Position numbers and translations under genes: made by a program
The notes under the pieces: model-generated
What the model was told of the DNA's origin: nothing
Databases searched by the model: none
Seen by the model: only the letters and a program-made list of their open reading frames with translations
Shown: piece after piece, positions 4,966 through 56,914 of the stretch
Position numbering within the stretch: the first letter of the stretch is position 1
Layout of the letters: every line of letters starts with the position of its first letter
From: Candidatus Undinarchaeales archaeon
Lineage (GTDB): Archaea > SpSt-1190 > JASMDC01
Assembly (NCBI GenBank): GCA_030753015.1
Contig: JASMDC010000019.1
Location: 1 to 62,750 of the forward strand
Reading direction: 5' to 3'
Length of the DNA: 62,750 bases

Positions 4966-7900
4966 TCACTGGAACCAGTCGGGAAGGTCCTCGTCCTCGC
5001 CCCCACCGCTGCCATAGTCGCCCGAGGGCGGTGCTGCCTGCTCGGGCGGTGCCTGGACCACCACGACCTGGGGCCTGCTCTGCATGACGTACATGGCACC
5101 TATGCCGATGATGGCGATCACGGCACCGATGAGAAGGGTCTGGACGGAGATGGGACCTTCGGACTTAGTCTCCGGGACGTGCCAAGAGACCAGTGTCTTG
5201 GTCTTGGTGTCCACCACTGCAGTGATGGCGATGCGCTCGTTTCCCTTTCGTGCGGTGATGACTACATCGTACTCGCCATCTGCGGTCTGTTGGAGTTCCG
5301 GCTTGCCGATCTTCCACCCATCGTTGCGGAGCTCGATGAGCCCGGCATCGGCGAAATCGTCTAACTTGATAGTGTCCATGACCTTCTGGACATCGACCTG
5401 ACTGTCCACGCACACTCCGTCCTTGCACTCCTTCTTGCCGGTGCAGCCGCAGTCCACGCAACAGGTGTTGTAGTTCTCGCCCGAGTCGCAGGAGTCGTCG
5501 CCGCACACGGCCTTGATGTCATCAATCTCCTTGACGCACTGGTTCTGCCTGCACCTGTAGCCGGGATCGCATCCACAGTCCGTGCAGCAGCTCTTGGACG
5601 TCTCGCCCTCACTGCACTGCAGGTCGCCGCACACCGTAGGGGGTGGCTTGGCGGGCGTGGCGACCGGTGTGGACGACGGCTGCGGCTGAGCACTGGTCGT
5701 GGGGCCCAAGGTGGTGACAGGTGTGGGTCCTCCTGAGACGACAGGTGTGGGCCCACCCGGTGGCATGGTGGAGAAGTCGCGGCAGAGGTGGGCGTTGGTA
5801 TCGCAGTACTGTCCACCGATGCAGTTGGCGTTCTCGCAGCAGTCGCCGCCCGCGAACCACGCTCCAGTACAGCACTTACCGCCGGTGCGCTCCACGCACT
5901 GGTGGTTCGATACCTCCTGGCATGTCGTGCAGGCGAGGGCCACGCACGTCTTGGACGTGTCACAGCTCTTGTCGCTGTCGCACCCGGAGTCATCGCAGCA
6001 CTTGCCGCCCGCGTACCACGTTCCCTGACAGCATTTCCCATCAGCTTCTGTATAGCATGTGGTGCCGCAGGGTACCTGGCCCACGTCACAGGCCAGGCTC
6101 GAGCACTGGTTGTTGGTCTGGCAGGTCTCGCCCGCTACCGTGCAGTCACCGTCGATGCAACAGGCGGCCCCGGCGATCCACGCGTCTGTGCAGCACTTAC
6201 CGCCATCGGTGCGGGCCACACAGGTGTGGTTGGAGGTCATCTGACATGACGTGCACACGAGGTCCTCGCACTTGTTGGCCTGGCAGGACTTGGCCGGATC
6301 GGTGCAGTCGTCGTTGCTGCAACAGACCGCTCCTTCCGTCCACACACCAGCGCAGCACTTACCGGTGGCGCCGACCTTGCACTCGCCTGCGCAAAGGTTA
6401 TAGCCCGCGATACACTGGGTGGTCGAGCAGGTCCCCTCGATGCAGGCGAACAGACCATCGCAGGCCGGGCCTGTGCATCCGGCAGGCGTGCCGGTGCCCC
6501 CTCCAGCGACGCACGCGTTGGCGGAGCAGGTCTCCCCGGTGCCCGTGCAGTCACCATCGGTGCAGCACTTGTCGCTACCCGCATGCCAGGTGGTATCGCA
6601 GCACTCCCCAGGGTTCTTGTTGCACGTGGTGCCGCACAGGGTGTAGCCGGTAACGCACGCATCCGTCGAGCACACATCCGAGACGCACGCGAAGTTGCCG
6701 GTGCAAAGGTTGGTGTCGGAGCACGCAGGAGGCGTGGTACACGTGTTGCTCGTGCACACCAGGTCGCCAGTGCAGTCATCCTTGATGCAGCACTTGTCGC
6801 TACCCGCATGCCAGGTCGTGGCGCAGCACTTCCCGGGATCCTGGTTGCACGTGGTGCCGCACAGGGTGTAGTCGGTAACGCATGCATCCGTCGAGCACAC
6901 GTCCGAGACGCACGCGAAGTTGCCGGTGCAGAGGTTGGTGTCGGAGCACGCCGCGGGCGCGGCGCACGTGTTGGCCGTGCACACCTGATCACCAGTGCAG
7001 TCCGCCTTCACGCAGCACTTGTCGCTGCCCGCATGCCAGGTCGAGTCGCAGCACTCCCCGGGATCGGCGTTGCACGTGGTGCCGCAGAACGTGTAATCCG
7101 TCACGCACGTGTCCGTCGAGCATGCGTCCGAGACGCATGCGAAGTTGCCGGTGCAGAGGTCGGTATCGGAGCATTCTGGGGGCGCGGTGCACGTGTTGTC
7201 GACGCACTCCTCCTCCCCGCAGTCATCATCGATGCAGCACTTGCCGCTACCCGCATGCCAGGTAGTGTCGCAGCACTCCCCGGGATCCTGGTTGCACGTC
7301 GAGCCGCACAGGGTGTAGCCGGTAACGCATGTGTCCGTCGAGCATGCGTCCGAGACGCACGCGAAGTTGCCGGTGCAGGGCTTGGTGTCAGAGCACCCGG
7401 CATCGTCAGTGCATAAGTGGGATACAGAATCGCAGGTCTTCTTCGCTACATTCTCACTACAATCGTCGCTGACGCAACACTCCCAGGCGGCCTGCCACAC
7501 GTTGTCGCAACACTCACCAAGGAGAGGATCCCCATCTATCTCATGGCACGTTCCGCCACAAGGAGGATTCTCGTACCCGTCAGCACAATCCGTTGGTGAA
7601 CACGTACACGTCTCAGTATCACAGGAGTCCCCCACACACATGAAGTTGTCACAATCGGCCGCAGTCACACATTTCTTCACGCATTTGAACTCTGCCGTAC
7701 ATCCCTCGGTCACTTCGCAATCACCATCAATACAGCACTCGGCCCCCTCACGCCACGTGCTATCGCCCTCACAGCACATCCCACTGCCCTTGACCTTGCA
7801 TGGACCCGGCGCCGGGCATTCCACAAAACCACTAGCGTCGCAACCGCATTTGGTACCGCCGTGTGCGCATTGTGTCAGCGAGTTACACTCGGACGCGTAA

Positions 7901-8571
7901 TCGTCGAACCGACTGCAGTAGCAGTCCGCGGTGTTCGTCGGATCCTCGCCCTTGCCCGTATCGCAGCAGTTCTCGGTGGGATTCTCGCACGCAGGATAAA
8001 GAAAGTCCGCTGGCACAGCGTCAGCCCCGCACGCCTCGTCGCAGCACTGGTAGTCATCACCACACCCGGTACGGGTGTCGAAGACCGACCCGCCGCACAC
8101 GGTGTTCCCCTCGGTGCAGCAATAGCCCACAGGGTCCCCTCCGGTGCAGGCCACCGGTGCGACCACGTCCACGCATGCCTCCTTGCAGCAGTCGTAGTCA
8201 CCTCCCCCCGGCTTCTGCCCGCAGCCGGAACCGAACTGGCTATTGCCGCCAGGGCATGTGGGCGTATCCACCGTGCAACAGGTACCGCCCAGGTCTGCTA
8301 CGCAGGCATCACCTCCGCCGCCACCACCGGTGACGGGTGAGCACATCCCCGGGGTCCCGGCTGTCCACTCGCATCCGTTGGAGGCCGTGCAGTCGCCTTC
8401 AACAGTGACACTGCTGCATTGCTGGCAAGCAGCTCCGGACCAATAGCATTTGCCAGCATCGCAAGCGCTCATATCTGCGCATCCGTCGCAGTTGAACGAG
8501 TCACACACGCCCATTCCGAGCGCGAGCGTGATGAACATAACTGTAAGGATAGTAAAGGTCTCCCTTCTCAT
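4966..8571 (-). CDS. Giant (about 1200 aa) extremely Cys-rich surface protein with tandem repeat modules and a C-terminal TM anchor
   Basis: It has a Sec signal (MRRETFTILTVMFITLALGMGVC). A CCxxxW(H/Q)AGxxCCxxDDC motif recurs about 10 times, and there are about 4.5 near-identical 75-aa repeats. A PT-rich linker is followed by two CGDxxCxxGExxxCCxDCGC modules, then a TM helix and an acidic tail ending LPDWFQ. Confidence 0.7.
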   Translation of the reverse strand: MRRETFTILTVMFITLALGMGVCDSFNCDGCADMSACDAGKCYWSGAACQQCSSVTVEGDCTASNGCEWTAGTPGMCSPVTGGGGGGDACVADLGGTCCTVDTPTCPGGNSQFGSGCGQKPGGGDYDCCKEACVDVVAPVACTGGDPVGYCCTEGNTVCGGSVFDTRTGCGDDYQCCDEACGADAVPADFLYPACENPTENCCDTGKGEDPTNTADCYCSRFDDYASECNSLTQCAHGGTKCGCDASGFVECPAPGPCKVKGSGMCCEGDSTWREGAECCIDGDCEVTEGCTAEFKCVKKCVTAADCDNFMCVGDSCDTETCTCSPTDCADGYENPPCGGTCHEIDGDPLLGECCDNVWQAAWECCVSDDCSENVAKKTCDSVSHLCTDDAGCSDTKPCTGNFACVSDACSTDTCVTGYTLCGSTCNQDPGECCDTTWHAGSGKCCIDDDCGEEECVDNTCTAPPECSDTDLCTGNFACVSDACSTDTCVTDYTFCGTTCNADPGECCDSTWHAGSDKCCVKADCTGDQVCTANTCAAPAACSDTNLCTGNFACVSDVCSTDACVTDYTLCGTTCNQDPGKCCATTWHAGSDKCCIKDDCTGDLVCTSNTCTTPPACSDTNLCTGNFACVSDVCSTDACVTGYTLCGTTCNKNPGECCDTTWHAGSDKCCTDGDCTGTGETCSANACVAGGGTGTPAGCTGPACDGLFACIEGTCSTTQCIAGYNLCAGECKVGATGKCCAGVWTEGAVCCSNDDCTDPAKSCQANKCEDLVCTSCQMTSNHTCVARTDGGKCCTDAWIAGAACCIDGDCTVAGETCQTNNQCSSLACDVGQVPCGTTCYTEADGKCCQGTWYAGGKCCDDSGCDSDKSCDTSKTCVALACTTCQEVSNHQCVERTGGKCCTGAWFAGGDCCENANCIGGQYCDTNAHLCRDFSTMPPGGPTPVVSGGPTPVTTLGPTTSAQPQPSSTPVATPAKPPPTVCGDLQCSEGETSKSCCTDCGCDPGYRCRQNQCVKEIDDIKAVCGDDSCDSGENYNTCCVDCGCTGKKECKDGVCVDSQVDVQKVMDTIKLDDFADAGLIELRNDGWKIGKPELQQTADGEYDVVITARKGNERIAITAVVDTKTKTLVSWHVPETKSEGPISVQTLLIGAVIAIIGIGAMYVMQSRPQVVVVQAPPEQAAPPSGDYGSGGGEDEDLPDWFQ
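6440..7440. repeat. Intragenic tandem repeat of about 4.5 copies, 225-nt period, roughly 90% identical
   Basis: The string gcgaagttgccggtgca(g/a)aggttggtgtcggagca recurs at 6689, 6914, 7139 and 7361. This produces look-alike ORFs in other frames (6583..7416, 6237..6992). Confidence 0.8.
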
Positions 8572-13444: not shown

Positions 13445-14900
13445 AAAGTTGGTGAACTACCCCTCTCCAAGTAGAGATGCTATGAAAATTATTGAACCAC
13501 CGTGTTGCCTTACCTCAGCAAAAGAGGTGACGCAAGATGAAGCACGGACACCAAACAGCACAGAACCTACAGATCGAGTACGAACAACTAACAACCCAGG
13601 AGCTGCACAAGAGATACAGGTACTTCATTGCCAAGGACGTGCACAAGAGGAGCACCACATACAATGTGCGGGACAGGATGGGCACCATCCTGGACCATGG
13701 TGAGACGGCCACGGACTACCAGGACCTCCATGACCGGCTCGAGCCATATCTTGACTCGGCGCTGATCGTGATGGAGGCGAGCACGAGCTACTACAAGCTC
13801 TACCAGGCATTCCTGGAGAACGGCTACGACGTTGTCGTCGCGAACACCATCAAGATACGGTCGCTTTTCCCCAAGGATGACAATATCGACGCTAGGAGGC
13901 TGTCGGACATGCTGCGCTTGGGATCGGTCCCGATCTCGTTCATCCCCGGTCCTGAGACCCAGCACCTGCGGAAGCTGGTCCGGACCAGACACTCCCTGAT
14001 GCAGGAGAAGGTCCGATGGAACAACCGCATCCAGGCACTTATCGACCTAGAGGGACTTAGGATGCCGCCCTTCAATGCCTTCACCAAGACCTGGACCCGG
14101 GCACTCGTCACGTACCTTGAAAGACCGAATGCCAGCTACGAGCTCAAACACACGTTCACGCACTATACCCGGGTGGAGCGACACCTCGAAGAGATCTCAA
14201 AGGAGATGCTCAGGTACACCGTCGAGCACTGGCGAGAAGAGTACGAGTTCCTCCAAACGATCCCCGGGATGGGGCGCATCACTGGATGCTACGTGATCGC
14301 CGATGTCCTGCCCATCGAACGGTTCGCAGTGAAGAAGGGACAGAAGAGTCTGAGACGGTACGTTGGTGTCGTCCCTGCGTTCAGCTCGTCGGGCGATTCC
14401 GTTTCTCAGGGCAGGATCCCAAAAGGGTCGAGCCGGAAGCTGCTTCGCTGGGCACTCGTTGAGGCAGCTAATGCAATAACAAGGACGAAAACCAAACTTG
14501 CTCAGTTCTACAAGATGAAGAAGAAGCAGAAGAAGTGTTCCGGAAAGGCCAAGATCGCCTTGGCTCACAAACTCTCAGATATCATCTATCACGTTCTTAC
14601 GACCAAGAAGCCATACGTGGCATCATGAACTGGAGGTATGAATGAAAGACCGATGAAGGCATGGAGGTGGTAAGGCACGCTGCCCTTGAAGCCCGTGTGT
14701 ATAATACACTCAGTAGAGAGTGGGCAGCCAATGACTCCACATAGTGGGCCAACACGTTAGGAGCGTGCCAGTACCCTGATCGGAGAATGTCGTCAAAGGG
14801 CCTTACCACCAAAATGTCTAAATAGGAGGACGCATATAAATGTAACGAGGGACGCAACACGGGACCGGATGGGGAGAAAAAACAAATCTGATTCCCTCTC
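13445..14900 (+). mobile_element. IS110-family insertion sequence (boundaries approximate)
   Basis: GC content drops relative to the flanks. The element carries a DEDD-type transposase gene plus long noncoding ends, as is usual for IS110. I could not identify TIRs. Confidence 0.5.
13537..14628 (+). CDS. IS110-family transposase
   Basis: It has an N-terminal DEDD region (YFIAKDVHKRST resembles VGIDVHK) and a C-terminal domain typical of the IS110/IS1111 family. Codon usage is lower-GC than the surroundings. Confidence 0.75.
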   Translation: MKHGHQTAQNLQIEYEQLTTQELHKRYRYFIAKDVHKRSTTYNVRDRMGTILDHGETATDYQDLHDRLEPYLDSALIVMEASTSYYKLYQAFLENGYDVVVANTIKIRSLFPKDDNIDARRLSDMLRLGSVPISFIPGPETQHLRKLVRTRHSLMQEKVRWNNRIQALIDLEGLRMPPFNAFTKTWTRALVTYLERPNASYELKHTFTHYTRVERHLEEISKEMLRYTVEHWREEYEFLQTIPGMGRITGCYVIADVLPIERFAVKKGQKSLRRYVGVVPAFSSSGDSVSQGRIPKGSSRKLLRWALVEAANAITRTKTKLAQFYKMKKKQKKCSGKAKIALAHKLSDIIYHVLTTKKPYVAS

Positions 14901-19716: not shown

Positions 19717-21276
19717 TTACTCTTCACGGCCGAGGCGCTCGATGGCCGCCGTCACAAGTGCTGCACTGTCCCGGACGTCACGCACGTCACCGGTCTCGGG
19801 GATGCTGTGCATGTTCTCGATGGGGATGGAGAGCACGGCCGTGTCCACATCGGCATCGAAGTAGGGCAGGCCGTCGGTGGTCCTGATATCGAACCGGTAC
19901 GAGTAGGGCGATACCTGGGTGGCCATACCGAGCTCCTCACCAGCGGCGAACAGGGCATCGGTCGCCTCGTGCGCAACGGATTTAGGAGCCTTCGTGATGA
20001 CGGGCCCGCCGCCCATCTCAACACGGTCGAGATACGTCACGTCCACAGCGATAGCATAGTCGGGGTGGATCTTCTCGGCGATGTGACCTGCACCGACCTG
20101 TCCGATCTCCTCCATGGAGGCGCCAACGATGTACACCGTCGGGCCGTCGTTGCCGCGTTCCCCGAGGGTGCGGGCCACGTCCATGAGCACCGCCACGCCG
20201 GCCCGGTCATCCAGGGCCTTGGTTGTGATGCGGGTCCCGTCGAGCTGCGGCTCATAGTCATGGTTCCAGTGGGGCACCTCGTCGATGTGTGCGTCCACGA
20301 GCACCGATGGACCGGTGCCGTGCTTCACGCCAACGAAGTTGTTGTGCTCGTCGATGTAGCACTCGTCGAGGTACGAGGTGAGGTTCTCCACGAGGTACTC
20401 GGCCACGGGGCGTTCGCGCCGGCTGGGCGCGTACATGCTCGTGAGCTCGATCAGGTCCTGAGTGACCTGGTCAGTGGGCTGTGGGGGGAGCATCTCCGGC
20501 CAAGTGGCCGTAGGGGTCCGTCCGAGCTGCTCGAGCGCGCCCTTCACGACCTCGGCGGTGGCCCGGACATCGCGCACATCACCAACCTCAGGGACACGGT
20601 GCATGTTGGCGATGGGGATGCACACTACTGCCGTGTCCATGCCCAGCTCCCTGTAGGGGAGGGCGTCGGTTGTCTCCACATCGAAATCGTAATCGTAGGG
20701 AGATACCTGTGTTGGGATGCTGTACTCCTTGCCAGCAGCGAATAGGGCGTCAGTGGCCTTGTGCGGTACGGTGTCTGGTGCCTTCGTGATGACGGGTCCG
20801 TCGCCACGTCGCACACCGTGCATGTAGGTGACGTCAACGGAGAAGGCGTAGTCTGCCAGCACCTCGGCCGCGACCTCACCAGCGCCGATCTGGCCAATCT
20901 CCTCCTTGGTGGCCCCCACAAGGTACACCGTGGGACCGTCCTTGCCCTGCTCGTTAAGATAACGGGCGAGGTCCAGGAGCACCGCCACGCCGGTCCGGTC
21001 GTCCAGGCCCTTCGCACGGATGGTGGTCCCGTCCAGCTGAGGCTCATACTCACGATACTCCGGATTCCGTCGGGATATCTCGTCGATGTGGGCGTCCACG
21101 ATCACCGTGGGCCCCGTACCGTACTTCACACCGACGACGTTGTCGTTCTCGTCGATGTAGACATCGTCGAGTAGGGGTTCGAAACGATCGAATAGGTACT
21201 CGGCCATCTCCTCCTCATGACCGCTTGGTGCATACATCCCCGTAAGTTCGAGGAGATCTTCGACGATCTCGTCCAT
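19717..21276 (-). CDS. Tandem-duplicated M42-like (TET/FrvX-type) metallopeptidase, two fused catalytic units
   Basis: Each half of roughly 260 aa starts with an FrvX-like N-terminus. Each half carries the HxDE, DDRxG, EEIG, VDVT and MH metal-ligand motifs. Halves are about 50% identical. Only about 25 aa separate HIDE and DDR, whereas TET peptidases have a dimerization domain of about 110 aa there. Confidence 0.65.
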   Translation of the reverse strand: MDEIVEDLLELTGMYAPSGHEEEMAEYLFDRFEPLLDDVYIDENDNVVGVKYGTGPTVIVDAHIDEISRRNPEYREYEPQLDGTTIRAKGLDDRTGVAVLLDLARYLNEQGKDGPTVYLVGATKEEIGQIGAGEVAAEVLADYAFSVDVTYMHGVRRGDGPVITKAPDTVPHKATDALFAAGKEYSIPTQVSPYDYDFDVETTDALPYRELGMDTAVVCIPIANMHRVPEVGDVRDVRATAEVVKGALEQLGRTPTATWPEMLPPQPTDQVTQDLIELTSMYAPSRRERPVAEYLVENLTSYLDECYIDEHNNFVGVKHGTGPSVLVDAHIDEVPHWNHDYEPQLDGTRITTKALDDRAGVAVLMDVARTLGERGNDGPTVYIVGASMEEIGQVGAGHIAEKIHPDYAIAVDVTYLDRVEMGGGPVITKAPKSVAHEATDALFAAGEELGMATQVSPYSYRFDIRTTDGLPYFDADVDTAVLSIPIENMHSIPETGDVRDVRDSAALVTAAIERLGREE

Positions 21277-21659
21277 TCCTATGTACCCCTGGCAGCGGTT
21301 AGCAGGGTCCGGTGCTTAAAAACATTTCGCTTACGGCCGGAAGTAGGAGAGTATAATGCAGGCGCTCATGTCGTTCGGGGGGGACGATAATATCCGGAAA
21401 CGTGAATCGTCCACTCAATCTTTATAACCCATGAAGGGGAATATAATGACATGCTCGACCAGGGCATGCCCGCGTTCGATGGGCGGCTCTCCCACTATCA
21501 GGAGACAGGGGAGTGCCCAACCTCGTTGAACGCCCGTAACGAGGATTCTGACGACCTCTCCGGACTGCTCTGGGAGGACCTTTTCGCCATGCCATAGTGC
21601 CGCATGAGCCATTAAAATTTAAGCAATGACTCAGTTCTCTGTTGGTAGCAGGTAGACCC

Positions 21660-24600
21660 ATGGCCACAAAGCCACCGATCGCCGGCCCTCGTCGCGCCCA
21701 GCGACTACGCCAGCGGGACGAGCATATCAGCTCTGCCCAGGACCACGAGGACGCCGAACGGTGGTTCGAGGCCGCGCGGGATTGGCTACATGCCGGTCTC
21801 CCCCTCCGGGCAGCAGCTGCGTTCGCGAGAGCTGAGCTGTGGAGCGATGCCGCAGAGGCCTATGAGGAGGGCGAAGAGTGGGCCGACGCCGCCCGGGCCT
21901 GGTCGAAGGCTGGAGAGGCGATGGAGGCCGACGGCCTGTGGTACGAGGCATCACAAGCCCTCGACCGCGAGAGCGTCTGCCGCGAACATGTCCGAGAAGA
22001 GACCGAGATCCGTCGCAAGCTCCATAAGGCAACCTCTCTAGAGGCGAAGGGCGAACCGGCCGAGGCCGCCAAGGCCTTCGAGGAGGCCGGAGAGCTCGTG
22101 CGCGCCGCGGAGAACTGGGAGGAGGCCGGACGCGAGCCTGAAGCAGCACGATGCCTTGAGCGGGCCGGTGATAACGCCCGGGCCGCGGTTCTCTATGAGC
22201 ATGCCGGGATGTGGCGTGAGGCCGCCGAGTGTCATCTCAGGGACGAGCGCTGGACCTCCGCTGCCGAGGTCTTCGAGAGGGCAAAGGACCACCCTGCCGC
22301 CGCGACCTACTTCGAGCGCAGCGGGAACCTAGAGCAAGCCGCTGAGAACCGGGAACGTGGAGGTGACTGGGACAGTGCCGCCGCCCTCTGGGAGCAGGTC
22401 GGGGAGCGTACCCGGGAGGTCAAGGCCCTTGAGAAAGCCGGCCGTTGGGCAAAGGCAGCCAGCATCCATGAGGAGCTCGGTGACCAGCGGAAGGCATCTG
22501 CTGCTTGGCGCAAGGGCATGCGCCCCGACCGGAGCGGCAGGAGCCGGGGTCTGGCCATGGAGGAGGCGGAGCGCTGGGCGGACGCCGCCGAGGCCTGGGC
22601 CGAGATCGGCGAGGCGGAGCGGGCCGCCCAGGATTGGGAGAAGGCCGAACGGTGGGAACGGGCCGCGGAGGCGTGGCTCGTCGCCCGGTCGTACGCCCGG
22701 GCAGCTCGGGCTTTCGAGAAGGACCGGGACTGGTTCAATGCCGCCCTCAACTTCGGTGAGGCGGAGGCCTGGGACGACGCAGGAAGGAACTGGGAGAAGG
22801 TTGATGAATGGAGCCGGGCCGCACGTGCATGGTCGAACGCCGGTGACCGGGCCGCTGCCGCACGCTGCTGGGGTCGGGCTGGTGAGTGGGAACGGGCCGC
22901 AGGTCACTACGAGGCCGCTGGCGACCACGCCTCTTCCGGTGAAGCCTGGCGTCGCGCGTCCCGATGGGCCGATGCCGCACGCGAACTGGAGGCAGCCCAG
23001 CAATGGAAGGACGCCGCCGAGGCCTATCGGAAAGCGGAACGTTGGTGGAAGGCCGCTATGCTGTTCGAGCGGGTCCGCGAATGGCCTACTGCCGCCGAGT
23101 GCTTCGAGCAGGCCCGGGACCTTCCCAAGGCCGCACTGTACTACGAGCGGGCCGAACGATGGGCGGACGCGGGCCGCTGCCAGCTGGCCGTGAAGCGTTA
23201 CCCGGAGGCGGCCGCCGCGCTCGAGCGTGCTGGCGACATAGAGAAAGCGGCTGCTGCCTGGGAAAAGGCCAACGACTTCGCCAAGGCCGGTCGAGCATGG
23301 GAGCGCCTCAAGCGATGGCGCCGGGCCGCCGCCGCGTTCCAGCGCGCGGGGATGCTCGCTGATTCCGCCTCTTCATGGGAGCGCGCCGAGGAGTTCGACA
23401 AGGCGGCGAAGCTGTACGAGGGGAACGAGGACTGGCCCGCCGCCGCGCGCATGCTCAAGGCGGCCGGGAAACCAGCGGCTGCTGTGTTCGAGAAGGCTAA
23501 GGACCTAGAAGCAGCGGCCAGCTGCTATGAGGATGAGGAGAACACCCTCCGGGCCGCGGAGCTGTGGCAAGAGCTAGGGAACCTCCAACGCGCAGGCACC
23601 CTGTTCCTTGAGTCTGGACGGCCCGAGGACGCCGCCGTCGCCTTCGAGGAGAAGCTCCTGTGGAGTGATGCGGGTGACGCGTGGCGCTCCGCAGGACGGC
23701 TCGAGGAGGCCGCACGGGCTTACCAGAAGGCCGAGCGTCAGGATGACGCTGCGACCTGCCTGGAAGAGGCAGGCAAGTACACCAAGGCCGGGCGGCTCCG
23801 AGAGGAACTGAAGGCCTACGTCACCGCCGCAGAGGACTTCGAACGGGATGCTAAGTGGGACCGCGCAGCTGCCGACTGGGAGCGCGCCGGACGATGGGAG
23901 GAGGCAGGGCTGGCCTGGGAACGGGCCAAGGATTCCGGCCGAGCTGCCGAAGCGTTCTCCCGGGCCGGCGATCCCGCAAGGGCTGCGTCCCTGTTCGCCA
24001 ATGCAGCCCTCCACGAGCAGGCCGCCAAGGCCTATGAGAAGGCAGGCGACTGGGAGCATGCGGCCCTCTCCTGGGAGCATGTGGGCGAACATGCCAAGGC
24101 CGCCCAAGCCCTGGAGCGAGCGACCGCCTGGGACCGTGCAGCCCGTCGCTGGGAGGCCGCTGGTGAGCCCGCTCGTGCTGCTGCTGCTGCCGAACGGGCC
24201 GGGCTCTTCGACGACGCGGCCCGCCTTTGGGAAGAGGCCGAGGAACTGGAGCGAGCAGCCGAAGCTAGCCAGCGCACCGACGATGCGGCTCGCACCGCTC
24301 GCCTCTGGGATGCGGTCGGGAAGGGCGAGCACGCAGCACGTTTCCACCTCGCTGCGGGCGATCCCGAGAAAGCGGCTCCGTTGCTAGAGCTTGCAGGGCG
24401 TATCGAGGAGGCCGCAGCCGCTTACGAGGACGCCCGCGACATCGCCAAGGCGGCACGGCTCTACGAGTCCGCCGGGGACGTCACCAAGGCAGCCAGCCTC
24501 TACGAGCGACTGGGCGAGCACGCCAAGGCCGCCAAGCTCCATGCGAGCCAGGCCAACGCCCCTGAAGCTGCCCGTCTCTACGAGTCCATAGGCGAGTTCG

Positions 24601-25565
24601 GGGACGCTGCCAAGTACTTCGAGGCCAGCGGTGACTTCTCCCGGGCAGGGGATAGCTACGAGAAGGGTGGTAAGTTCACCGACGCGGCCATGAACTTCGC
24701 TCGCTCCGGGGATATGGCCCGAGCAGGAGCGAGCTTCGCTGCCGCGGACGACTTCGCCCGTGCTGCAGAGGCATTCACCGAGAACGGCGACCACGTCCTG
24801 GCGGCCGAGCAATGGGAGAAGGCCGAGGAACCTGCCAAAGCGGCCGAGGCCTACGAGCGGGCCGAGGCGTTCGACAAGGCCGCCGAGGCCTATGAACATG
24901 CTAACGAACTGGAGAAGGCCGCGCGTCTATTCACCCTGGTCCGCTCCTTTGAGCACGCGGCAGAGCTCTTCACCAAGCTCGGTCAGCATCGGGAGGCAGG
25001 CGTGTGTCTCGAGCGGGCGGAGCATTGGAGCGATGCGGCGGAGTCCATGGAACTGGCCGAGGACTGGGAGCAGGCCTTGGAGGACCACAAGCGGGCCGGT
25101 CATTGGGAGCGGGCCGCCAGTGTATGCTTCAAACAGAACCGGCTCATGGACGGCGTGGACCTCTTGCTCAAGGCCGGGAAGAACGAGGGCGCCGCCCGCC
25201 ACCTCTTCGAGAAGGCCTCACATACCATCATGGACCTGGACGACACCTGCACGCTCCTGGAACGCGCACAACGGATACACCGCACCGGCTCCATCGACGG
25301 CGCCCACCGCATCATCGCTGGCGCACTCAAGGGCCGGCTCGAGGACCTCCATAAAGGCACGTCCATGATGACCGATGACGCTGAGTTCGCCTTCCACGCT
25401 TCCAAGCGCTTCCTCCAGTTCGCGCGAGAAGAGGAGCGCAAGCTCGCTGCGAAAGCGCCTCGCAAGGTCCAGCACGCTGTGCGCATCTGCCCGGAATGCG
25501 GTGAGGAGATACGGCTCGCTAAGGTGCCGAAGTTCTGTCCTTTCTGCTCCAAACCGCTCGCGTGA
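21660..25565 (+). CDS. Giant alpha-helical repeat protein, with about 95 copies of a 13-residue AAxx(Y/W/F)ExAG(D/E)(W/F)xx repeat and a C-terminal CxxC...CxxC zinc ribbon
   Basis: The 13-residue periodicity is visible along nearly the entire 1300 aa. The C-terminus reads CPECGEEIRLAKVPKFCPFCSKPL. An ATTAAAATTT box lies upstream. Confidence 0.7.
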   Translation: MATKPPIAGPRRAQRLRQRDEHISSAQDHEDAERWFEAARDWLHAGLPLRAAAAFARAELWSDAAEAYEEGEEWADAARAWSKAGEAMEADGLWYEASQALDRESVCREHVREETEIRRKLHKATSLEAKGEPAEAAKAFEEAGELVRAAENWEEAGREPEAARCLERAGDNARAAVLYEHAGMWREAAECHLRDERWTSAAEVFERAKDHPAAATYFERSGNLEQAAENRERGGDWDSAAALWEQVGERTREVKALEKAGRWAKAASIHEELGDQRKASAAWRKGMRPDRSGRSRGLAMEEAERWADAAEAWAEIGEAERAAQDWEKAERWERAAEAWLVARSYARAARAFEKDRDWFNAALNFGEAEAWDDAGRNWEKVDEWSRAARAWSNAGDRAAAARCWGRAGEWERAAGHYEAAGDHASSGEAWRRASRWADAARELEAAQQWKDAAEAYRKAERWWKAAMLFERVREWPTAAECFEQARDLPKAALYYERAERWADAGRCQLAVKRYPEAAAALERAGDIEKAAAAWEKANDFAKAGRAWERLKRWRRAAAAFQRAGMLADSASSWERAEEFDKAAKLYEGNEDWPAAARMLKAAGKPAAAVFEKAKDLEAAASCYEDEENTLRAAELWQELGNLQRAGTLFLESGRPEDAAVAFEEKLLWSDAGDAWRSAGRLEEAARAYQKAERQDDAATCLEEAGKYTKAGRLREELKAYVTAAEDFERDAKWDRAAADWERAGRWEEAGLAWERAKDSGRAAEAFSRAGDPARAASLFANAALHEQAAKAYEKAGDWEHAALSWEHVGEHAKAAQALERATAWDRAARRWEAAGEPARAAAAAERAGLFDDAARLWEEAEELERAAEASQRTDDAARTARLWDAVGKGEHAARFHLAAGDPEKAAPLLELAGRIEEAAAAYEDARDIAKAARLYESAGDVTKAASLYERLGEHAKAAKLHASQANAPEAARLYESIGEFGDAAKYFEASGDFSRAGDSYEKGGKFTDAAMNFARSGDMARAGASFAAADDFARAAEAFTENGDHVLAAEQWEKAEEPAKAAEAYERAEAFDKAAEAYEHANELEKAARLFTLVRSFEHAAELFTKLGQHREAGVCLERAEHWSDAAESMELAEDWEQALEDHKRAGHWERAASVCFKQNRLMDGVDLLLKAGKNEGAARHLFEKASHTIMDLDDTCTLLERAQRIHRTGSIDGAHRIIAGALKGRLEDLHKGTSMMTDDAEFAFHASKRFLQFAREEERKLAAKAPRKVQHAVRICPECGEEIRLAKVPKFCPFCSKPLA

Positions 25566-25571
25566 GCAGCA

Positions 25572-26201
25572 TTACTGACCCGGCTGAAGGTTCATCGCTC
25601 CGCAGCGCTTGCAGCACCGGTATTCCGTGGGGCCTCGGTACACGATGGTGAAATCGGTGAGCTCCCGCTCGCAGTGACCACATTTCAGAGCACTCGAATC
25701 CTCGAGCTGCTGTGCGTACACGATGATGCCGCTCTTGCCGGGGGGCATGGACGCCGTACCAGCGTGGGGTTCTGTCAGCTCCTTCCGCGGCTCTCGTCGC
25801 CCCTCGTCCCGTGTCCTACGACGGGGCTGCCGTGACCGCGATCGGTCGACCTCGGTGGGTGTCGGAGCGGGAGCGCGCTCGGGGCCATCCTTGGGTGCCG
25901 GATCAGTCTTCCTTCCCTTTCGTCGCCGACGCCGCTTCGGATGCTCACCGGCCCGCTCGAAGTACACCTTTCGTCCCTCGAGATCGACCTCGGCCACCTT
26001 CCAGCTGGCGGTGAGCCAGGCGTTTGCCGGGGACCGGGGCCCTGTTGCCTCGTTGGTCCACCACTCGGCCTGCTCCAGAGCACGTGCTGGGAGGTCTACG
26101 CCGAGGATGCGTCGTTCGATGGTGGAGAACTTCAAGCACAGTTTCCGGCGGCCTTCCTTGGCCAGGAAATCAGTCAGCGGCTGGTATTTGTTGCCAGTCA
26201 A
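25572..26201 (-). CDS. Hypothetical protein with a conserved N-terminal domain (KYQPLTDFL...WW...AWLTASWKV), a basic linker and a C-terminal zinc ribbon
   Basis: It is a 209-aa ORF with a CGHCERE...CCKRCG motif. It is convergent with the giant repeat protein. Confidence 0.45.
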   Translation of the reverse strand: MTGNKYQPLTDFLAKEGRRKLCLKFSTIERRILGVDLPARALEQAEWWTNEATGPRSPANAWLTASWKVAEVDLEGRKVYFERAGEHPKRRRRRKGRKTDPAPKDGPERAPAPTPTEVDRSRSRQPRRRTRDEGRREPRKELTEPHAGTASMPPGKSGIIVYAQQLEDSSALKCGHCERELTDFTIVYRGPTEYRCCKRCGAMNLQPGQ

Positions 26202-44458: not shown

Positions 44459-46708
44459 CTACTTCCACACCTCGAGGTTGAGCACGCCCGCGCCCCTACC
44501 GCCCCGGGGCGCTACGACTCGGTTGACTGACACCACACCGTACTTTGCCTGAGTGGACGGGATGCAGCCGAAGTCCGGGTTCTGACAGTTCGCCATCCCC
44601 TCGGGCTGCTCGCCCACCTCTTGAGCAGGATCTGGATCGGTCATGAAGGGCTCGGCTTGGTATTGTGGATCGTAGCAGAATGTCTCACAGCTCCCCTTAT
44701 CCTCGATACCGCGGACCACGCACACGGCCGGATCGACCTCCGGGTCCCACTCACCGCCGACATCCTCCCCCTCACAGAACGCCGGGTTCATCCCCACGGA
44801 CGTAACTGTGCACCGGCCACCCGGCCCTTCGCCGGGATCGTTCCACGCCCACGCGGTCGTAAGGTGCTCACATGCTTGGAGGGAATCGGCGGCGAGCAAA
44901 CACTCGTCGTTCACCCAGGAACCTCCGACGTCGGGATCGAGGCAGTCAACATCGTTCTCGATCTTCACGGCCACGCATCGCGGATCGGGCAGGTCCTCGG
45001 TCCATTCCGTGTTGCCCGCGGCCTCGCAGGTCTGCTCGTCAGAGATGAGCCAGATAAAACAGGCCGGATCGTTCCAGACGCCGTTGATACCCTCACACGT
45101 TGCCTGGTCAGGCGCTTCTGCGGGAAGTGTCCTGCAGTACTCGGTAGGGAGCCATTCGGCCTCAGCCAACGCGCCCTCGCACGTTGTCTGGTCGGGAACG
45201 GTCGGGAGGAGGCAATCGCCCCGCTCATCATCCCAGAACGTAAGGTACTGCCCGGGATCATCGCCCCAGAACGTGGCCTCCCCATCGAAGGTGGAAGTCG
45301 CCTCCAAGGCTACACCATACGTGCGAGTGGGCACGTCTCCGGTAAAAGTATCACTGTGCTGTATAGCGAACCGGCAGTTGTTGGTTTGCGTGAAGGTGCC
45401 CACGATAGTGGCGCCAGCGAAAGTCTCATCCCCCTGTCTGAAGGTGGTGTACGTGATGGTGGCGGTCACACCGCTAGCGTCCGACACGATCGTGATGGTC
45501 GGTTCCTCACCGGGATCGCATACATTCGGCGAATAGCAGATCGATGTTCCGGCCTGGCACGCGACCACGAGATCATGCTTGAACACAGGACGCCATGAAG
45601 GGGATCCGGGGGTCGCGGGATCCGTGTCGGCGTCGCCATCTGAAGCGACATAATAATCAATGAAGCTGACAAGGCTCCCGTCACACGCCGCCCCGACATG
45701 GACACGGAACCTCGACTCCACGATACCACAGTCGACCGTGTAGACCTCTGACGCACCGTCCATGGTCTGCTGGATAGTCCCCGCGGGGTGCTGTCCGGCC
45801 CCTACAGGGAACCCGCGGTTGGACGTCAGGTACGCATCGGCCGCTGCCCCGAGCGTACCGGAGGATATGTCGCTCTCATCGGGGATGATATCGAAGACGA
45901 CGGTCCCACTATCGTAGCTGTCCGGACAGTTCCCCGCTTTGCAGGCAACGATCGCCACTTGGAGATAGTCCCCGTTAGCATCGACTTTCAACTGGGTGAG
46001 ACCAACATCCCCTGGTGTGTAATCATCTGCCGTCGTCAAATGGAGACACATACCTCCGGGATTCTCCCGGTTGCATGTACCGGTCGAATGACCGGCCTCA
46101 TTGATCTGGAAGACCGCTGCGTTCCTGAGGATGATTCTTGTCAGTTCATTGTCTCCGTATAAGAAACTGCCGTCCATCTCGCGATACCCTGCGGATAAGA
46201 TGCGGCAGTTATTGGCATTTTCCGTCACCGGATCAGTGACAACGCACCGGGGTACTGACGGATCCTCGAACCACTGAGTGTCGACGGGTAACGTGATATC
46301 CCGGTCCACGCCCATGTCCTCGTCCTTGCATACATACATGCTCAGACGCCAGCCATAACCTAGGGAGCCTTCCGTGGTCATCAGAGGTGAGAAGAAGGTT
46401 GGCCCCACCAAGAAGGGATCTAATCCAGTTAGGGCCTCGTCGTCGATAACGTTCAGCCGGTCGATGCCCATCCCCTCGTCATAGTACGAGACACCGTACT
46501 GATAGCTGTTCGGTGAGGAGTCCACCATGGCGGTCATGAAGTCATCGGAGACCATCTTGAGGTCGTACACAGTCTCCCACTCGACCCGATCTTTATTCAC
46601 CTCGGTCTGTATCCGCTCCATGGCGGTGAAGAGAAGAACGAATATCCCTAGTGCGATGAGGATGTCGATGGAGAAGGTCTGCCCTCGTCGACGTCGTCCT
46701 AGCCTCAC
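44459..46708 (-). CDS. Giant class III signal-peptide (pilin-like N-terminus) protein, about 750 aa
   Basis: The GTG start at 46708 overlaps the upstream stop (GTGA). The N-terminus is MRLGRRRRG|QTFSIDILIALGIFVLLF. The protein has a large Cys-containing extracellular domain. Confidence 0.6.
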   Translation of the reverse strand: MRLGRRRRGQTFSIDILIALGIFVLLFTAMERIQTEVNKDRVEWETVYDLKMVSDDFMTAMVDSSPNSYQYGVSYYDEGMGIDRLNVIDDEALTGLDPFLVGPTFFSPLMTTEGSLGYGWRLSMYVCKDEDMGVDRDITLPVDTQWFEDPSVPRCVVTDPVTENANNCRILSAGYREMDGSFLYGDNELTRIILRNAAVFQINEAGHSTGTCNRENPGGMCLHLTTADDYTPGDVGLTQLKVDANGDYLQVAIVACKAGNCPDSYDSGTVVFDIIPDESDISSGTLGAAADAYLTSNRGFPVGAGQHPAGTIQQTMDGASEVYTVDCGIVESRFRVHVGAACDGSLVSFIDYYVASDGDADTDPATPGSPSWRPVFKHDLVVACQAGTSICYSPNVCDPGEEPTITIVSDASGVTATITYTTFRQGDETFAGATIVGTFTQTNNCRFAIQHSDTFTGDVPTRTYGVALEATSTFDGEATFWGDDPGQYLTFWDDERGDCLLPTVPDQTTCEGALAEAEWLPTEYCRTLPAEAPDQATCEGINGVWNDPACFIWLISDEQTCEAAGNTEWTEDLPDPRCVAVKIENDVDCLDPDVGGSWVNDECLLAADSLQACEHLTTAWAWNDPGEGPGGRCTVTSVGMNPAFCEGEDVGGEWDPEVDPAVCVVRGIEDKGSCETFCYDPQYQAEPFMTDPDPAQEVGEQPEGMANCQNPDFGCIPSTQAKYGVVSVNRVVAPRGGRGAGVLNLEVWK

Positions 46709-47181: not shown

Positions 47182-47710
47182 CCTCCTTGGGGACGCCCCC
47201 TTCGGCGAACAGGCGCACGCGTCCGTGCCGGCACTGTATCTTGAGCTTGACCGAACCGCAGATGAGGTTACCACAGGTGACCTCAAGCCTGTAGCGCTCT
47301 TCAGGCTCGTCTTTCCACTCACCGATGGAGAATGTGCCGAAGTGTCGCCCGTTCACGTAAGCGGATCCTGTCGGTGGTGCCTGATCGAACTGGGAACGCG
47401 GGACCTCCACCTCGATACCCTGCACCGCACCGCTAGCGAATTCCTCTTCACGGTGACGGACGTTGATATGACGTGACCATGTGAAGACCTGGAGGTGCTC
47501 GGTGTTGTGCGATCCACCGTCACAAGCGTGTTCCAGTGCTAAAGCGAGCTTCTTTGCTATGATCTCCGCACGCTTCGCGGAGTTACGGTCGGCGAGCCGC
47601 TGATTCTCCATCTGGGCCGTGAACAGGAGCATCGCGAAAAGCATGAGCACTGCGGACATGAGCGCCAGTGTTTCTAGTGGCACCTGTCCCCGTTGTGCCC
47701 GAACCATCAT
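47168..47710 (-). CDS. Pilin-like class III signal-peptide protein (180 aa)
   Basis: The N-terminus is MMVRAQRG|QVPLETLALMSAVLMLFAMLLF (Gln+1, Glu+5). There is an ATGA overlap with the upstream gene. Confidence 0.6.
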   Translation of the reverse strand: MMVRAQRGQVPLETLALMSAVLMLFAMLLFTAQMENQRLADRNSAKRAEIIAKKLALALEHACDGGSHNTEHLQVFTWSRHINVRHREEEFASGAVQGIEVEVPRSQFDQAPPTGSAYVNGRHFGTFSIGEWKDEPEERYRLEVTCGNLICGSVKLKIQCRHGRVRLFAEGGVPKEDEDE

Positions 47711-56500: not shown

Positions 56501-56901
56501 CACCCACTGCCTCCGGCCAATTTGTCCATCACGTCACACCTGCGCTGCTGGACAGCGCCGGTATCCAGGCATGCCTCCTCGCAGTAGGCGCTCCCCGTGC
56601 CCGAGTCCCGCTTGCACGATTCTGCGAAACCGCAGTCGGTCGCCACGGGCGGTGAACAGGTGCAGGTGCCATCGCCCTCGTTGATGACGCAATCCCATTC
56701 ATTGAGGACGGCGTCAAGTGTACATCCAGCGCAGCTGAAGGGAGGACCTGTGTCGTAGTCGCAGGTGACAGGATTACTATCGACCAGCTGGATAGTGTTC
56801 CCCGGTCCAAGAACGCATGCAGCGCTGACCGGTGTGAAGAGAATCAGAAATAGTAGAAGGAGGGTGATGACTGGCGAATCTCGCACGCCATCACCCTTCA
56901 T
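53539..56901 (-). CDS. Giant (about 1120 aa) Sec-secreted, highly acidic, Cys-rich protein embedded in the class III operon
   Basis: It has a Sec signal (MKGDGVRDSPVITLLLLFLILFTPVSAA) and well over 100 Cys. It has no TM. The C-terminus is PLPEEEGEEEE. Confidence 0.6.
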   Translation of the reverse strand: MKGDGVRDSPVITLLLLFLILFTPVSAACVLGPGNTIQLVDSNPVTCDYDTGPPFSCAGCTLDAVLNEWDCVINEGDGTCTCSPPVATDCGFAESCKRDSGTGSAYCEEACLDTGAVQQRRCDVMDKLAGGSGCIETEVPYYTGPVTAAVACSGGDEDKRLCFYCDLTGKLMADTCLISDVTGRAFLAVGELQKDCNPNENPCQVDAENNIVYCDKCLVDEGVVAQQVRCNGNLHKCQQSTDSCYSGNAPLEAACDAENLDDIDCKFCESDGSIVTSGCSRVDGLAECDESNEEDDCLPVLADGERTFQCGSQEGGTVQCSRCINDVDNARFAIGETRRCVMPAVYGDLLDPITCDPLPTEDVLPIQCYYVESGDPLTLGPPPGAPPIEDACIEPDGDDPNPDGITCKYCSTSGVARDARCDVDMGNGAVVCSDEPLPPPGEIEVTEECLEDAQWHYACNDPDNDPDDLDDCRVMLDAADTDTFSKNCDRCHVDAEGNSQWRVQRCNYDAGAHTATCERYDVGCKDFSRCSWNSTLDAYTDPDHLRLLQFTCADPDPRCIVAEDEEAEWDRETCESAPYNGQWDAGFLHCVVPLIVTEDTCTGFAYGVEWFGDPLPMCLPDPALTQNLEDVFGVGWNADSDYRDHYCMGGQWYSCVHPQEFEDVTLQTLANAGGDILNSTYRAQKESYYANLKATLIAEEIDAGLPGEDGQCCAPESLESLDVVTRTILGTDEDELPRVYTCLEMDIPYVIRAPYSDEMNALAPDPMNDPWAPDAIDDSPFQQELAERWGDEGNRTHLCEGSGMCIDLDLGMCCPDMETDHCKFCRVFSLTDDLDDPNANCVATDCFDPDCPGDTCEFTQCQDLDDLADNCEQGCTHALFLPAADCDEAAICAAHLVQPAPLPCCNSDVDCCEWLADQYATAINDGSFPTPYYCLNPEEPDPVGGVHTHWCALGKRAGSECDDVKECATFATLPGHGDCEENVCLGRDLDVFFDDLITYPAPDEDDQCEITENLAQCGLDQDNYLLRALYPPMTPAELECSYEGEENSFAPLADLAISMRENMVQYCTVREPISTSLCNNFFNSIGFTSCLVPVDPVPTLEELDSALIVPLPEEEGEEEE

Positions 56902-56914
56902 ACCTGCGGCCCGT

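What the first reader, a model, noticed from the sequence alone, without database searches (positions are those of the whole stretch)
21660..26201. 1300-aa protein made of about 95 perfect-period 13-residue Ala/Glu/Trp repeats capped by a zinc ribbon, convergent with another zinc-ribbon protein
The unit AAxx(Y/W/F)ExAG(D/E)(W/F/H)xx repeats with strict 13-residue periodicity from residue about 60 to about 1230. Examples are AAKAFEEAGELVR, AAENWEEAGREPE and AARLYESAGDVTK. Two units would form a 26-residue helical hairpin, suggesting a very long alpha-solenoid. It is neither TPR (34), HEAT, Sel1 nor pentapeptide. The C-terminus is a CxxC-x17-CxxC ribbon. The convergent neighbour (25572..26201) also ends in a zinc ribbon. 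I could not place its conserved N-terminal domain (KYQPLTDFL...AWLTASWKV).
Basis: seen in the sequence. Interest (0 to 1): 0.6.

Follow-up and report, generated by a model that had tools for sequence, protein, structure and literature searches.

The report
Giant 13-residue mini-TPR solenoid protein
An uncultivated archaeon encodes a conserved 1301-residue protein built almost entirely from about 86-89 copies of a 13-residue helix-plus-turn unit, a shortened relative of the common TPR repeat and the longest such array found here; its cellular role is still unknown.

Summary
The ORF at 21660..25565 (+) encodes 1301 aa. Its sequence autocorrelation peaks only at 13 and its multiples (z = 20-23) and is negative at 34.

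I count 86-89 units, not about 95. They lie in four blocks of 6, 13, 24 and 45 units, separated by three register breaks.

The gene is genuine. Three lineages keep exactly 1301 aa with no indel, and dN/dS is 0.06-0.08. The units share only about 43% nucleotide identity, so the array is old.

With an alignment, AlphaFold2 gives pLDDT 97-98 over the modelled repeat region (aa 820-1196). Each unit there is a 10-residue helix (W-x-x-A-A-x-x-W/F/Y-E-x) plus a 3-residue A-G-D turn.

The same 13-mer occurs in about 2300 protein clusters, mostly bacterial kinases, UvrD-like helicases and PQQ propellers, usually in runs of 9-11 units.

The zinc ribbon is CPEC-x12-CPFC, not x17. The convergent neighbour is DUF7662, a basic linker and a zinc ribbon; nothing links it to the big gene.

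The most likely role is a passive protein-binding scaffold. This is inferred, not shown.

The parts
21660..25565 (+). Gene for the 1301-aa 13-mer repeat protein (ATG start; an in-frame TTG lies at 21642)
   Evidence: ORF. The exact protein was found on contigs in 33 blocks of the assembly collection. Three lineages are all 1301 aa with no indels; dN/dS 0.056-0.081.
21612..21622 (+). TTAAAATTTAA, a TATA-box-like element about 40 nt upstream of the ATG (inferred archaeal promoter)
   Evidence: Sequence read. It lies in a stretch almost identical to L010 (2 differences nearby). Promoter function is inferred, not tested.
21732..21965 (+). Repeat block 0: 6 units (aa 31-108 counted from the TTG), the first and last degenerate
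   Evidence: PSSM scans; translation.
21966..22025 (+). 20-aa non-repeat insert; first register break
   Evidence: Negative PSSM scores.
22026..22532 (+). Repeat block A: 13 units in one register
22533..22544 (+). 4-aa insert inside the basic stretch KGMRPDRSGRSRG; second register break
22545..23474 (+). Repeat block B: 24 units. The last unit is 11 aa, giving the third register break (-2 aa).
23475..25229 (+). Repeat block C: 45 consecutive 13-residue units without any indel
   Evidence: The AlphaFold2 model of its last 29 units has pLDDT 97-98, with helices starting every 13 residues.
25230..25466 (+). C-terminal non-repeat helical region, modelled as four longer helices at low confidence
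   Evidence: pLDDT 55-75; the alignment in this region is not homologous. No homolog found.
25488..25547 (+). Zinc-ribbon-like motif CPECGEEIRLAKVPKFCPFC (CxxC-x12-CxxC)
   Evidence: Pfam DZR scores only 14.5 bits against a cut-off of 27.3.
21451..21597 (+). Conserved 48-aa acidic small ORF, 62 nt upstream on the same strand, with invariant C-terminal tail DDLSGLLWEDLFAMP. It is only a possible partner of the big protein.
   Evidence: Called as a gene in every lineage. Length is conserved. The last 15 codons differ between window and L010 by 4 synonymous changes only. No Pfam match.
25572..26201 (-). Convergent neighbour gene, 209 aa, TTG start: DUF7662 (25950-26186), basic Pro/Arg-rich linker (25692-25949) and CGHC-x19-CKRC ribbon (25602-25682). 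Probably not part of the same system.

Best explanation
The gene encodes a real, cytoplasmic, strongly conserved 1301-residue protein. About 88% of it is one TPR-like alpha-alpha solenoid built from a 13-residue unit with consensus A-A-[ER]-[AL]-[WFY]-E-[RK]-A-G-[DE]-[WLF]-x-[RKD].

Each unit is one 10-residue helix (positions 11-13 and 1-7) followed by a 3-residue A-G-D turn. The buried face of the helix is W11-A1-A2-W5. Two units form a 26-residue antiparallel hairpin. This resembles a TPR in which both helices carry the B-helix signature (A-x3-aromatic-x2-A) and roughly 8 residues per repeat are missing.

Three register breaks divide the array into arms of 6, 13, 24 and 45 helices. A short helical region and a CPEC-x12-CPFC zinc ribbon cap the C-terminus.

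Shown here: the period, the reality of the gene, the helix-turn geometry, and the TPR-like affinity.

Inferred: it works as a passive, very long protein-protein interaction scaffold or spacer, as TPR arrays generally do. The zinc ribbon would act as a docking module. The protein is not an enzyme, and it does not work together with the convergent DUF7662 gene.
For: Period and blocks.

Coding and selection: three lineages of identical length; dS 0.21-0.52 and dN/dS 0.056-0.081. In window versus L010, the core columns change least (A2 1/81, W5 0/81, A8 2/81, W11 2/81) and columns 9, 12 and 13 change most (9-11/81).

The array is old: units share on average 29% aa and 43% nt identity, and TRF finds almost no DNA repeat.

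Fold: the AlphaFold2 model of aa 820-1307 has mean pLDDT 87.4, with 97-98 in the repeats. 26 helices of 9-11 residues start every 13 residues.

Generic binding module: the same 13-mer is fused to Ser/Thr kinases, UvrD-like helicases, PQQ propellers and a J domain.

Cytoplasmic: no uncharged stretch of 15 or more residues.

No catalytic or defence domain.

Housekeeping surroundings.
Against: No binding partner or phenotype is known, so the scaffold role rests on analogy with TPR proteins.

Only aa 820-1307 was modelled with confidence. The full-length single-sequence model failed (pLDDT 50). No coordinates were available, so the superhelix geometry and the effect of the register breaks are unknown.

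Global structural matches are poor (Foldseek TMq 0.1-0.38), so the overall shape may differ from known TPR superhelices.

The hhalign link to TPR is weak (probability 18%, E = 1.3e-3).

The C-terminal region has no homologs and was modelled poorly.

Orthologs were found only at >=94% identity, so long-range conservation is untested.
Confidence: 0.6

Rival explanations
1. It is a peptide receptor or adaptor. The solenoid binds the invariant acidic C-terminal tail (…DDLSGLLWEDLFAMP-COOH) of the 48-aa protein encoded 62 nt upstream, as HOP or PEX5 TPR domains bind C-terminal peptides. It may recruit many copies of that protein, or act as a co-chaperone-like platform.
Confidence: 0.15
2. It is an archaeal relative of eukaryotic coat, IFT or SNAP alpha-solenoids (protocoatomer-type) and acts in membrane shaping or trafficking-like assemblies.
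Confidence: 0.07
3. It is the sensor arm of a defence or stress system and works with the neighbouring DUF7662 zinc-ribbon protein. That protein's basic linker would bind nucleic acid, or would bind the acidic solenoid.
For: DUF7662 occurs fused to an HNH endonuclease and to a DUF4268 protein. It also occurs in a Thermococcus plasmid island with an NYN domain, a type I restriction endonuclease and RNase J. 13-mer arrays are attached to UvrD-like helicases, one of which JGI names as carrying a YoeB-like toxin part. The neighbour's linker is strongly basic and the solenoid has net charge about -54.
Against: PADLOC gives no hit for either protein. The genes are convergent. The surroundings are housekeeping genes. 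The big protein has no NTPase or nuclease domain. Co-occurrence is seen only in near-identical genomes.
Confidence: 0.07
4. It is an ordinary 34-36-residue TPR, Sel1 or HEAT protein read in the wrong register, or a spurious ORF created by GC-rich repetitive DNA.
For: JGI pipelines label relatives 'tetratricopeptide (TPR) repeat protein'. High GC content produces many long overlapping ORFs in this region.
Against: Autocorrelation at lags 34 and 36 is negative (z = -6.9 and -1.3), against z = 20-23 at lags 13 and 26. Model helices start exactly every 13 residues. dN/dS is 0.056-0.081 with no indel across 3906 nt in three lineages.
Confidence: 0.02

Closest known systems
Canonical tetratricopeptide repeat (TPR, 34 aa; e.g. 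consensus CTPR, HOP TPR1, OGT)
   Different: The period is 13 per helix and 26 per hairpin instead of 34. The two helices of a hairpin do not differ in sequence. There is no Pro32 position. No TPR_1/2-type Pfam model reaches its cut-off in this protein. Global superposition is poor (TMq 0.10-0.38).
Alpha/gamma-SNAP (Pfam PF14938)
   Different: SNAP is a protein of about 290 aa with nine helices plus a globular C-terminal bundle. Here the model matches in 8 partial stretches along a 1100-residue array. There is no SNAP C-terminal domain.
TPR regions of IFT-A proteins (IFT144/WDR19, IFT140, IFT122; Pfam TPR_IF140-IFT172)
   Different: In the IFT proteins the 13-mers are few and interrupted, and they follow WD40 propellers. 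The window protein has no propeller and has 45 uninterrupted units.
Unnamed 13-mer arrays in bacterial Ser/Thr kinases, UvrD-like helicases, PQQ-propeller proteins and the J-domain protein P0001
   Same: They share the same unit and period, with autocorrelation peaks at 13/26/39. They were found by phmmer and by a 3-unit profile: 2306 clusters at E <= 1e-3. Some PQQ members also end in a CxxC-x10-12-CxxC ribbon.
   Different: Their typical uninterrupted run is 9-11 units, and most of them carry an identifiable catalytic or other functional domain. The window protein has 86-89 units and no other recognisable domain. Among 273 retrieved proteins, only P0001 (61 units, longest run 52) and P0128 (50 units) come near it.
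Clathrin heavy-chain / VPS repeat (Pfam PF00637)
   Same: Short helices in a zigzag; the Pfam score of 48.1 bits is above the cut-off.

Membership tests
Canonical TPR (Pfam TPR_1/TPR_2 type) | 34-residue repeat period | tested here: not met
   Autocorrelation z = -6.9 and -6.1 at lag 34; the peaks are at 13 and its multiples.
Canonical TPR (Pfam TPR_1/TPR_2 type) | Antiparallel helix A / helix B hairpins stacked into a superhelix | tested here: met
Canonical TPR (Pfam TPR_1/TPR_2 type) | Signature residues W4 L7 G8 Y11 A20 F24 A27 P32, and a Pfam TPR model above its gathering score | tested here: not met
   Only the A20/F24/A27-like and G-x-aromatic parts are present (hhalign probability 18%). 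The best TPR model, TPR_16, scores 15.8 bits against a cut-off of 32.7.
TPR-like superfamily (Pfam TPR clan; clan membership of SNAP, Clathrin and the IFT TPR model is recalled from memory) | Significant match to at least one model of the clan, plus an alpha-alpha hairpin solenoid fold | tested here: met
   SNAP 66.9 bits (cut-off 25), Clathrin 48.1 (29.6) and TPR_IF140-IFT172 30.7 (26.8). Fold evidence.
SNAP (soluble NSF attachment protein) | One roughly full-length match to the 282-position profile, including the C-terminal globular bundle | tested here: not met
   There are 8 partial stretches. The best covers profile positions 29-181 only.
SNAP (soluble NSF attachment protein) | Acts with NSF and SNAREs | not testable with these tools
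   There is no functional assay and no whole-genome inventory.
Clathrin/VPS heavy-chain repeat | Repeat of about 145 residues covering the whole profile | tested here: not met
   Best stretch covers profile positions 75-125 of 143. Lag 145 gives z = -3.2.
Zinc ribbon (C-terminus of the big protein) | Two CxxC knuckles about 10-20 residues apart on short beta hairpins; binds zinc | tested here: inconclusive
   The CPEC-x12-CPFC motif is present. Pfam DZR scores 14.5 bits against 27.3. Model pLDDT there is 43-61. Metal binding cannot be tested here.
DUF7662 (neighbour protein) | Pfam PF24698 match above the gathering score | tested here: met
   39.5 bits against a cut-off of 26; aa 6-84 match profile positions 1-71 of 72.
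Known anti-phage defence systems (PADLOC) | Match to any PADLOC-DB model | tested here: not met
   No hit at E <= 1 for either protein.

The most novel reading that the evidence does not exclude
The 13-residue helix-plus-turn unit may be a distinct repeat class that has not yet been named (a 'half-TPR' with a 26-residue hairpin, apparently the shortest alpha-solenoid hairpin). This archaeal protein would be its extreme natural form: a continuous superhelical rod or spring of about 1100 residues. It could act as a cellular ruler or scaffold, or as a multivalent receptor for the acidic tail of the 48-aa protein encoded upstream. It may share ancestry with the alpha-solenoids of IFT and coat proteins.
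Probability: 0.2. Interest if true: 0.65.

Novelty: new variant of a known kind. Interest (0 to 1): 0.42.

Why it matters
**Repeat-protein structure and design.** This is a natural array of 45 identical-length, 13-residue helix-turn units, under strong purifying selection and already diverged at the DNA level. It is close to a naturally occurring 'designed' repeat protein. It extends the TPR-like superfamily to a 26-residue hairpin.

**Annotation.** About 2300 protein clusters carry this unit. In the cases I saw, pipelines label them 'TPR', 'SNAP' or 'Clathrin'. A dedicated 13-mer model would stop SNAP and Clathrin labels being spread to prokaryotic proteins.

**Biology.** The source genomes are labelled Undinarchaeota, a DPANN group with small genomes by my own knowledge. 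Such an organism spends 3.9 kb on a protein with no catalytic domain, which suggests an important structural or partner-binding role. That role cannot be named yet.

Tried and rejected
**Structure**
- Single-sequence AlphaFold2 of aa 108-1307 failed: pLDDT 50, with units fused into long helices.
- The afdb50 fold library was not available.
- Model coordinates are not exposed, so superhelix pitch and handedness could not be measured.

**Profile libraries**
- NCBIfam gave only sub-threshold zinc-finger hits.
- PADLOC gave nothing.
- Rfam found nothing in the window.
- Pfam found nothing for the 48-aa ORF.

**Homolog searches**
- The C-terminal 140 aa found no homolog by word-based search.
- The full-length protein is absent from the 15-billion-protein collection. 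The lack of close hits is therefore not evidence that orthologs are rare.
- The GTDB scan uses exact 8-mer peptides. It found only one ortholog, at 94% identity, so it cannot see diverged orthologs.
- The neighbour's homolog search returned only three near-identical clusters.

**Literature**
- Searches for a 13- or 26-residue helical repeat and for DUF7662 found nothing relevant.

**Ideas rejected**
- A/B alternation of units: odd and even units have the same profile.
- A transmembrane or secreted protein: no hydrophobic stretch.
- Recent repeat expansion: TRF is nearly empty and nucleotide identity between units is 43%.
- A truncated neighbour gene: the '58 aa' version in some assemblies is only a start-codon choice, because the DNA is identical.

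No terminator-like or sigma-70-like sites lie between the convergent genes. That scan does not cover archaeal signals.
Full report
**Numbering.** Amino-acid positions count from the in-frame TTG at 21642 unless stated otherwise. Subtract 6 for the ATG start at 21660.

**1. Observation**

The window has an ORF at 21642/21660..25565 (+) and a convergent ORF at 25572..26201 (-). The amino-acid identity autocorrelation of the large protein, compared with 200 shuffles, peaks at lag 13 (z = 20.3) and lag 26 (z = 23.3). Every further multiple up to 117 gives z >= 14.5. Lags 34 and 36 are at or below expectation (z = -6.9 and -1.3) (repeated, which also shows nothing at lag 145).

Written in rows of 13, the register holds within blocks. 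A position-specific scan places the units as follows:

| Block | aa | Units | Note |
|---|---|---|---|
| 0 | 31-108 | 6 | the outer two are degenerate |
| A | 129-297 | 13 | |
| B | 302-611 | 24 | the last unit has 11 aa |
| C | 612-1196 | 45 | no indel at all |

That gives 86-89 units and three register breaks: +20 aa, +4 aa and -2 aa. The period is strict only inside blocks.

The unit consensus is A-A-[ER]-[AL]-[WFY]-E-[RK]-A-G-[DE]-[WLF]-x-[RKD]. Odd and even units have the same profile, so the true unit is 13 residues, not 26.

The C-terminal motif is CPEC-x12-CPFC, not x17.

**2. The gene is real and the array is old**

- The exact 1301-aa product (ATG at 21660) is encoded on contigs in 33 blocks of the public assembly collection, always in the same housekeeping neighbourhood.
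- Three lineages were recovered: the window, L018 (96.2% aa identity) and L010 = L015 (93.9%). All are exactly 1301 aa with no indel. dS is 0.21-0.52 and dN/dS is 0.056-0.081.
- In the window versus L010 comparison, substitutions avoid the core columns (A2 1/81, W5 0/81, A8 2/81, W11 2/81). They concentrate in columns 9, 12 and 13 (9-11/81).
- Units share on average only 29% aa and 43% nt identity, and Tandem Repeats Finder finds almost nothing. This is an old array held by selection on the protein, not a recent expansion or an artefact of GC-rich DNA.
- The source genomes are labelled Candidatus Undinarchaeota / Undinarchaeales.

**3. Structure**

A single-sequence AlphaFold2 run on aa 108-1307 failed (pLDDT 50).

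I then aligned aa 820-1307 with three other blocks of the same protein and 58 homologs. I checked that 56 of these 58 rows align fully in the query's 13-residue phase (the other two mostly so) and that coverage is about 60 sequences throughout. With this alignment the model has mean pLDDT 87.4 and 97-98 over the repeats. It contains 26 helices of 9-11 residues that start exactly every 13 residues.

Mapping onto the unit:
- The helix is W11-x-x-A1-A2-x-x-W5-E6-x7.
- The turn is A8-G9-D10.
- The buried stripe is therefore W-A-A-W. This fits the substitution pattern in section 2.

The C-terminal 110 residues (four longer helices and the ribbon) are modelled at low confidence. The alignment is not homologous there, so I make no claim about them.

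**4. What it resembles**

*Pfam.* SNAP scores 66.9 bits (cut-off 25; 8 partial stretches). Clathrin scores 48.1 (cut-off 29.6; only profile positions 75-125 of 143). TPR_IF140-IFT172 scores 30.7 (cut-off 26.8). The classical TPR models stay below their cut-offs.

*PDB sequences.* The best hits are the IFT-A subunits IFT144/WDR19 and IFT122, then SNAPs. The printed IFT144 alignment shows local 13-mers (AAEMYERAGQFER AASIYIQTKNFAA AAPLM...).

*Foldseek against the PDB.* It finds TPR proteins (CTR9, IFT-A, LGN, OGT) at E of 1e-8 to 1e-6. TMq is only 0.10-0.38 and rmsd 15-40 A, so the hairpins match locally but the overall shape does not.

*hhalign.* A 3-unit profile against consensus TPR puts G9/W11/A1/W5 on G15/Y17/A20/Y24. 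The link is weak (E = 1.3e-3, probability 18%).

Taken together, the protein belongs to the TPR-like superfamily. Its hairpin is shortened to 26 residues and both helices look like the TPR B helix. It fails the defining tests for canonical TPR (period, Pfam cut-offs), for SNAP (full-length match) and for the clathrin heavy-chain repeat.

**5. The wider 13-mer family**

- phmmer found 134 proteins, the best at 33% identity. They are bacterial Ser/Thr kinases, UvrD-like helicases (JGI names one as carrying a YoeB-like toxin part), PQQ beta-propeller proteins and a J-domain protein (P0001).
- Nearly all of these proteins have autocorrelation peaks at 13, 26 and 39 and none at 34. JGI labels them 'TPR'.
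- A 39-position profile of three units, searched against 1.84 billion representative proteins, finds 2306 proteins at E <= 1e-3, 883 at <= 1e-10 and 84 at <= 1e-30. The family is real but small.
- The best-scoring members are again helicases and kinases.
- Typical uninterrupted runs are 9-11 units. Among the 273 proteins retrieved, the largest arrays are P0001 (61 units, longest run 52) and P0128 (50 units). The window protein, with 86-89 units, is the largest seen.
- Twelve relatives, ten of them PQQ-propeller proteins by precomputed Pfam, carry terminal CxxC...CxxC ribbons. Several of these sit at the very C-terminus. The combination of solenoid and ribbon is therefore recurrent.

**6. Neighbours**

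*The convergent 209-aa gene.* It uses a TTG start. Some assemblies call only its last 58 codons, but the DNA is identical. It consists of DUF7662 (Pfam, E = 4.8e-10), a basic Pro/Arg-rich linker that varies between lineages and carries an in-frame indel, and a CGHC-x19-CKRC ribbon.

On plasmids, DUF7662 is fused to an HNH endonuclease and to a DUF4268 protein. It also occurs in a Thermococcus island with an NYN domain, a type I restriction enzyme and RNase J. This hints at a nucleic-acid-related role for that domain.

Nothing ties this gene to the solenoid:
- The genes are convergent.
- Synteny is known only among >=94%-identical genomes.
- 4 of 48 ORFs in the window carry a CxxC pair.
- PADLOC is silent for both proteins.

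*The 48-aa small ORF.* This is more intriguing. It lies at 21451..21597, 62 nt upstream on the same strand. It is called as a gene in every lineage and is always 48 aa. Its termini are invariant (ML.Q..P.FDGRLSHYQ ... DDLSGLLWEDLFAMP). Between window and L010, its last 15 codons differ by four synonymous changes only. It has no Pfam match. An acidic C-terminal tail next to a TPR-like protein suggests a ligand, but this is untested.

**7. Mechanism**

Shown: a conserved, cytoplasmic, non-enzymatic protein consisting of about 1100 residues of stacked 10-residue helices. It has no uncharged stretch of 15 or more residues.

Inferred: it acts as a long scaffold or spacer that binds partners along its surface, as TPR arrays do. 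The C-terminal zinc ribbon would be a docking point. The three register breaks may act as hinges between arms of 6, 13, 24 and 45 helices.

I give about 0.9 to the structural part and about 0.45 to the functional part. The rivals are:

| Rival | Probability |
|---|---|
| Receptor for the 48-aa protein's tail | 0.15 |
| Coat/IFT/SNAP-like role | 0.07 |
| Defence or sensor pair with the DUF7662 gene | 0.07 |
| Mis-phased canonical TPR, or spurious ORF (refuted) | 0.02 |

**8. Novelty and score**

The fold class is known, and relatives are already labelled TPR by automatic pipelines. What is new is:
- the recognition of a strict 13-residue single-helix unit (26-residue hairpin);
- its census of about 2300 clusters;
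- this record-length array, which has no other recognisable domain, in an archaeon.

My literature searches found no description of such a unit, but the library is incomplete. I rate it a new variant of a known kind, with interest 0.42. It is a striking object for repeat-protein structure and for annotation, but it has no established function.

Noticed in passing
window 21451-21597 (+): Conserved 48-aa acidic small ORF directly upstream of the big gene. Its N-terminus and its C-terminal tail (DDLSGLLWEDLFAMP) are invariant, the middle is variable, and it has no Pfam match. It may be a peptide ligand of the solenoid.
   Followed up: partly
window 25572-26201 (-); L007 13913-14089: The DUF7662 neighbour starts at TTG. 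Many assemblies therefore call only its last 58 codons (cluster member P0123, on 14 contigs), although the DNA is identical. This is an annotation artefact, not a truncation.
   Followed up: yes
window 4966-8571 (-), 44459-46621 (-), 47707-50553 (-), 50589-52295 (-), 53539-57135 (-): Five large, very acidic ORFs (568-1201 aa; D+E 14-19%, K+R 5-7%) have no Pfam match at all. They may be surface or secreted proteins of this archaeon.
   Followed up: partly
window 19717-21276 (-): The 519-aa M42/M28-type peptidase appears to be an internal tandem duplication. The Pfam list gives Peptidase_M42 twice, and both halves start with similar sequences (…LTGMYAPSGHEE… and …LTSMYAPSRRER…).
   Followed up: no
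window 13537-14628 (+): An IS110-family transposase (DEDD_Tnp_IS110 plus Transposase_20) lies about 7 kb upstream of the big gene, inside otherwise housekeeping context.
   Followed up: partly
proteins P0002, P0003, P0009, P0021, P0127-P0132; locus L011 (Pannus brasiliensis): A recurrent bacterial architecture joins a UvrD-like SF1 helicase to a C-terminal 13-mer array. JGI names one member (P0003) as also carrying a Txe/YoeB toxin part. It is not in PADLOC as far as tested and could be a defence-type system.
   Followed up: no
proteins P0059, P0071, P0083, P0099, P0104, P0107 and others: These bacterial proteins combine a zinc ribbon, a PQQ beta-propeller, a 13-mer alpha-solenoid and often a C-terminal zinc ribbon. 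The propeller-plus-solenoid layout recalls eukaryotic coat and IFT proteins.
   Followed up: no
window 22001-24000: Local composition anomaly: GC 0.69, GC skew +0.13 and AT skew +0.19, against about 0.62 and near zero elsewhere. It is probably explained by the Ala/Glu/Arg/Trp codon content of the repeat array.
   Followed up: partly
big protein, databases: The full-length 1301-aa protein is absent from the 15-billion-protein collection, although the gene-position index lists it on many contigs. Homology searches in that collection cannot return its orthologs.
   Followed up: partly
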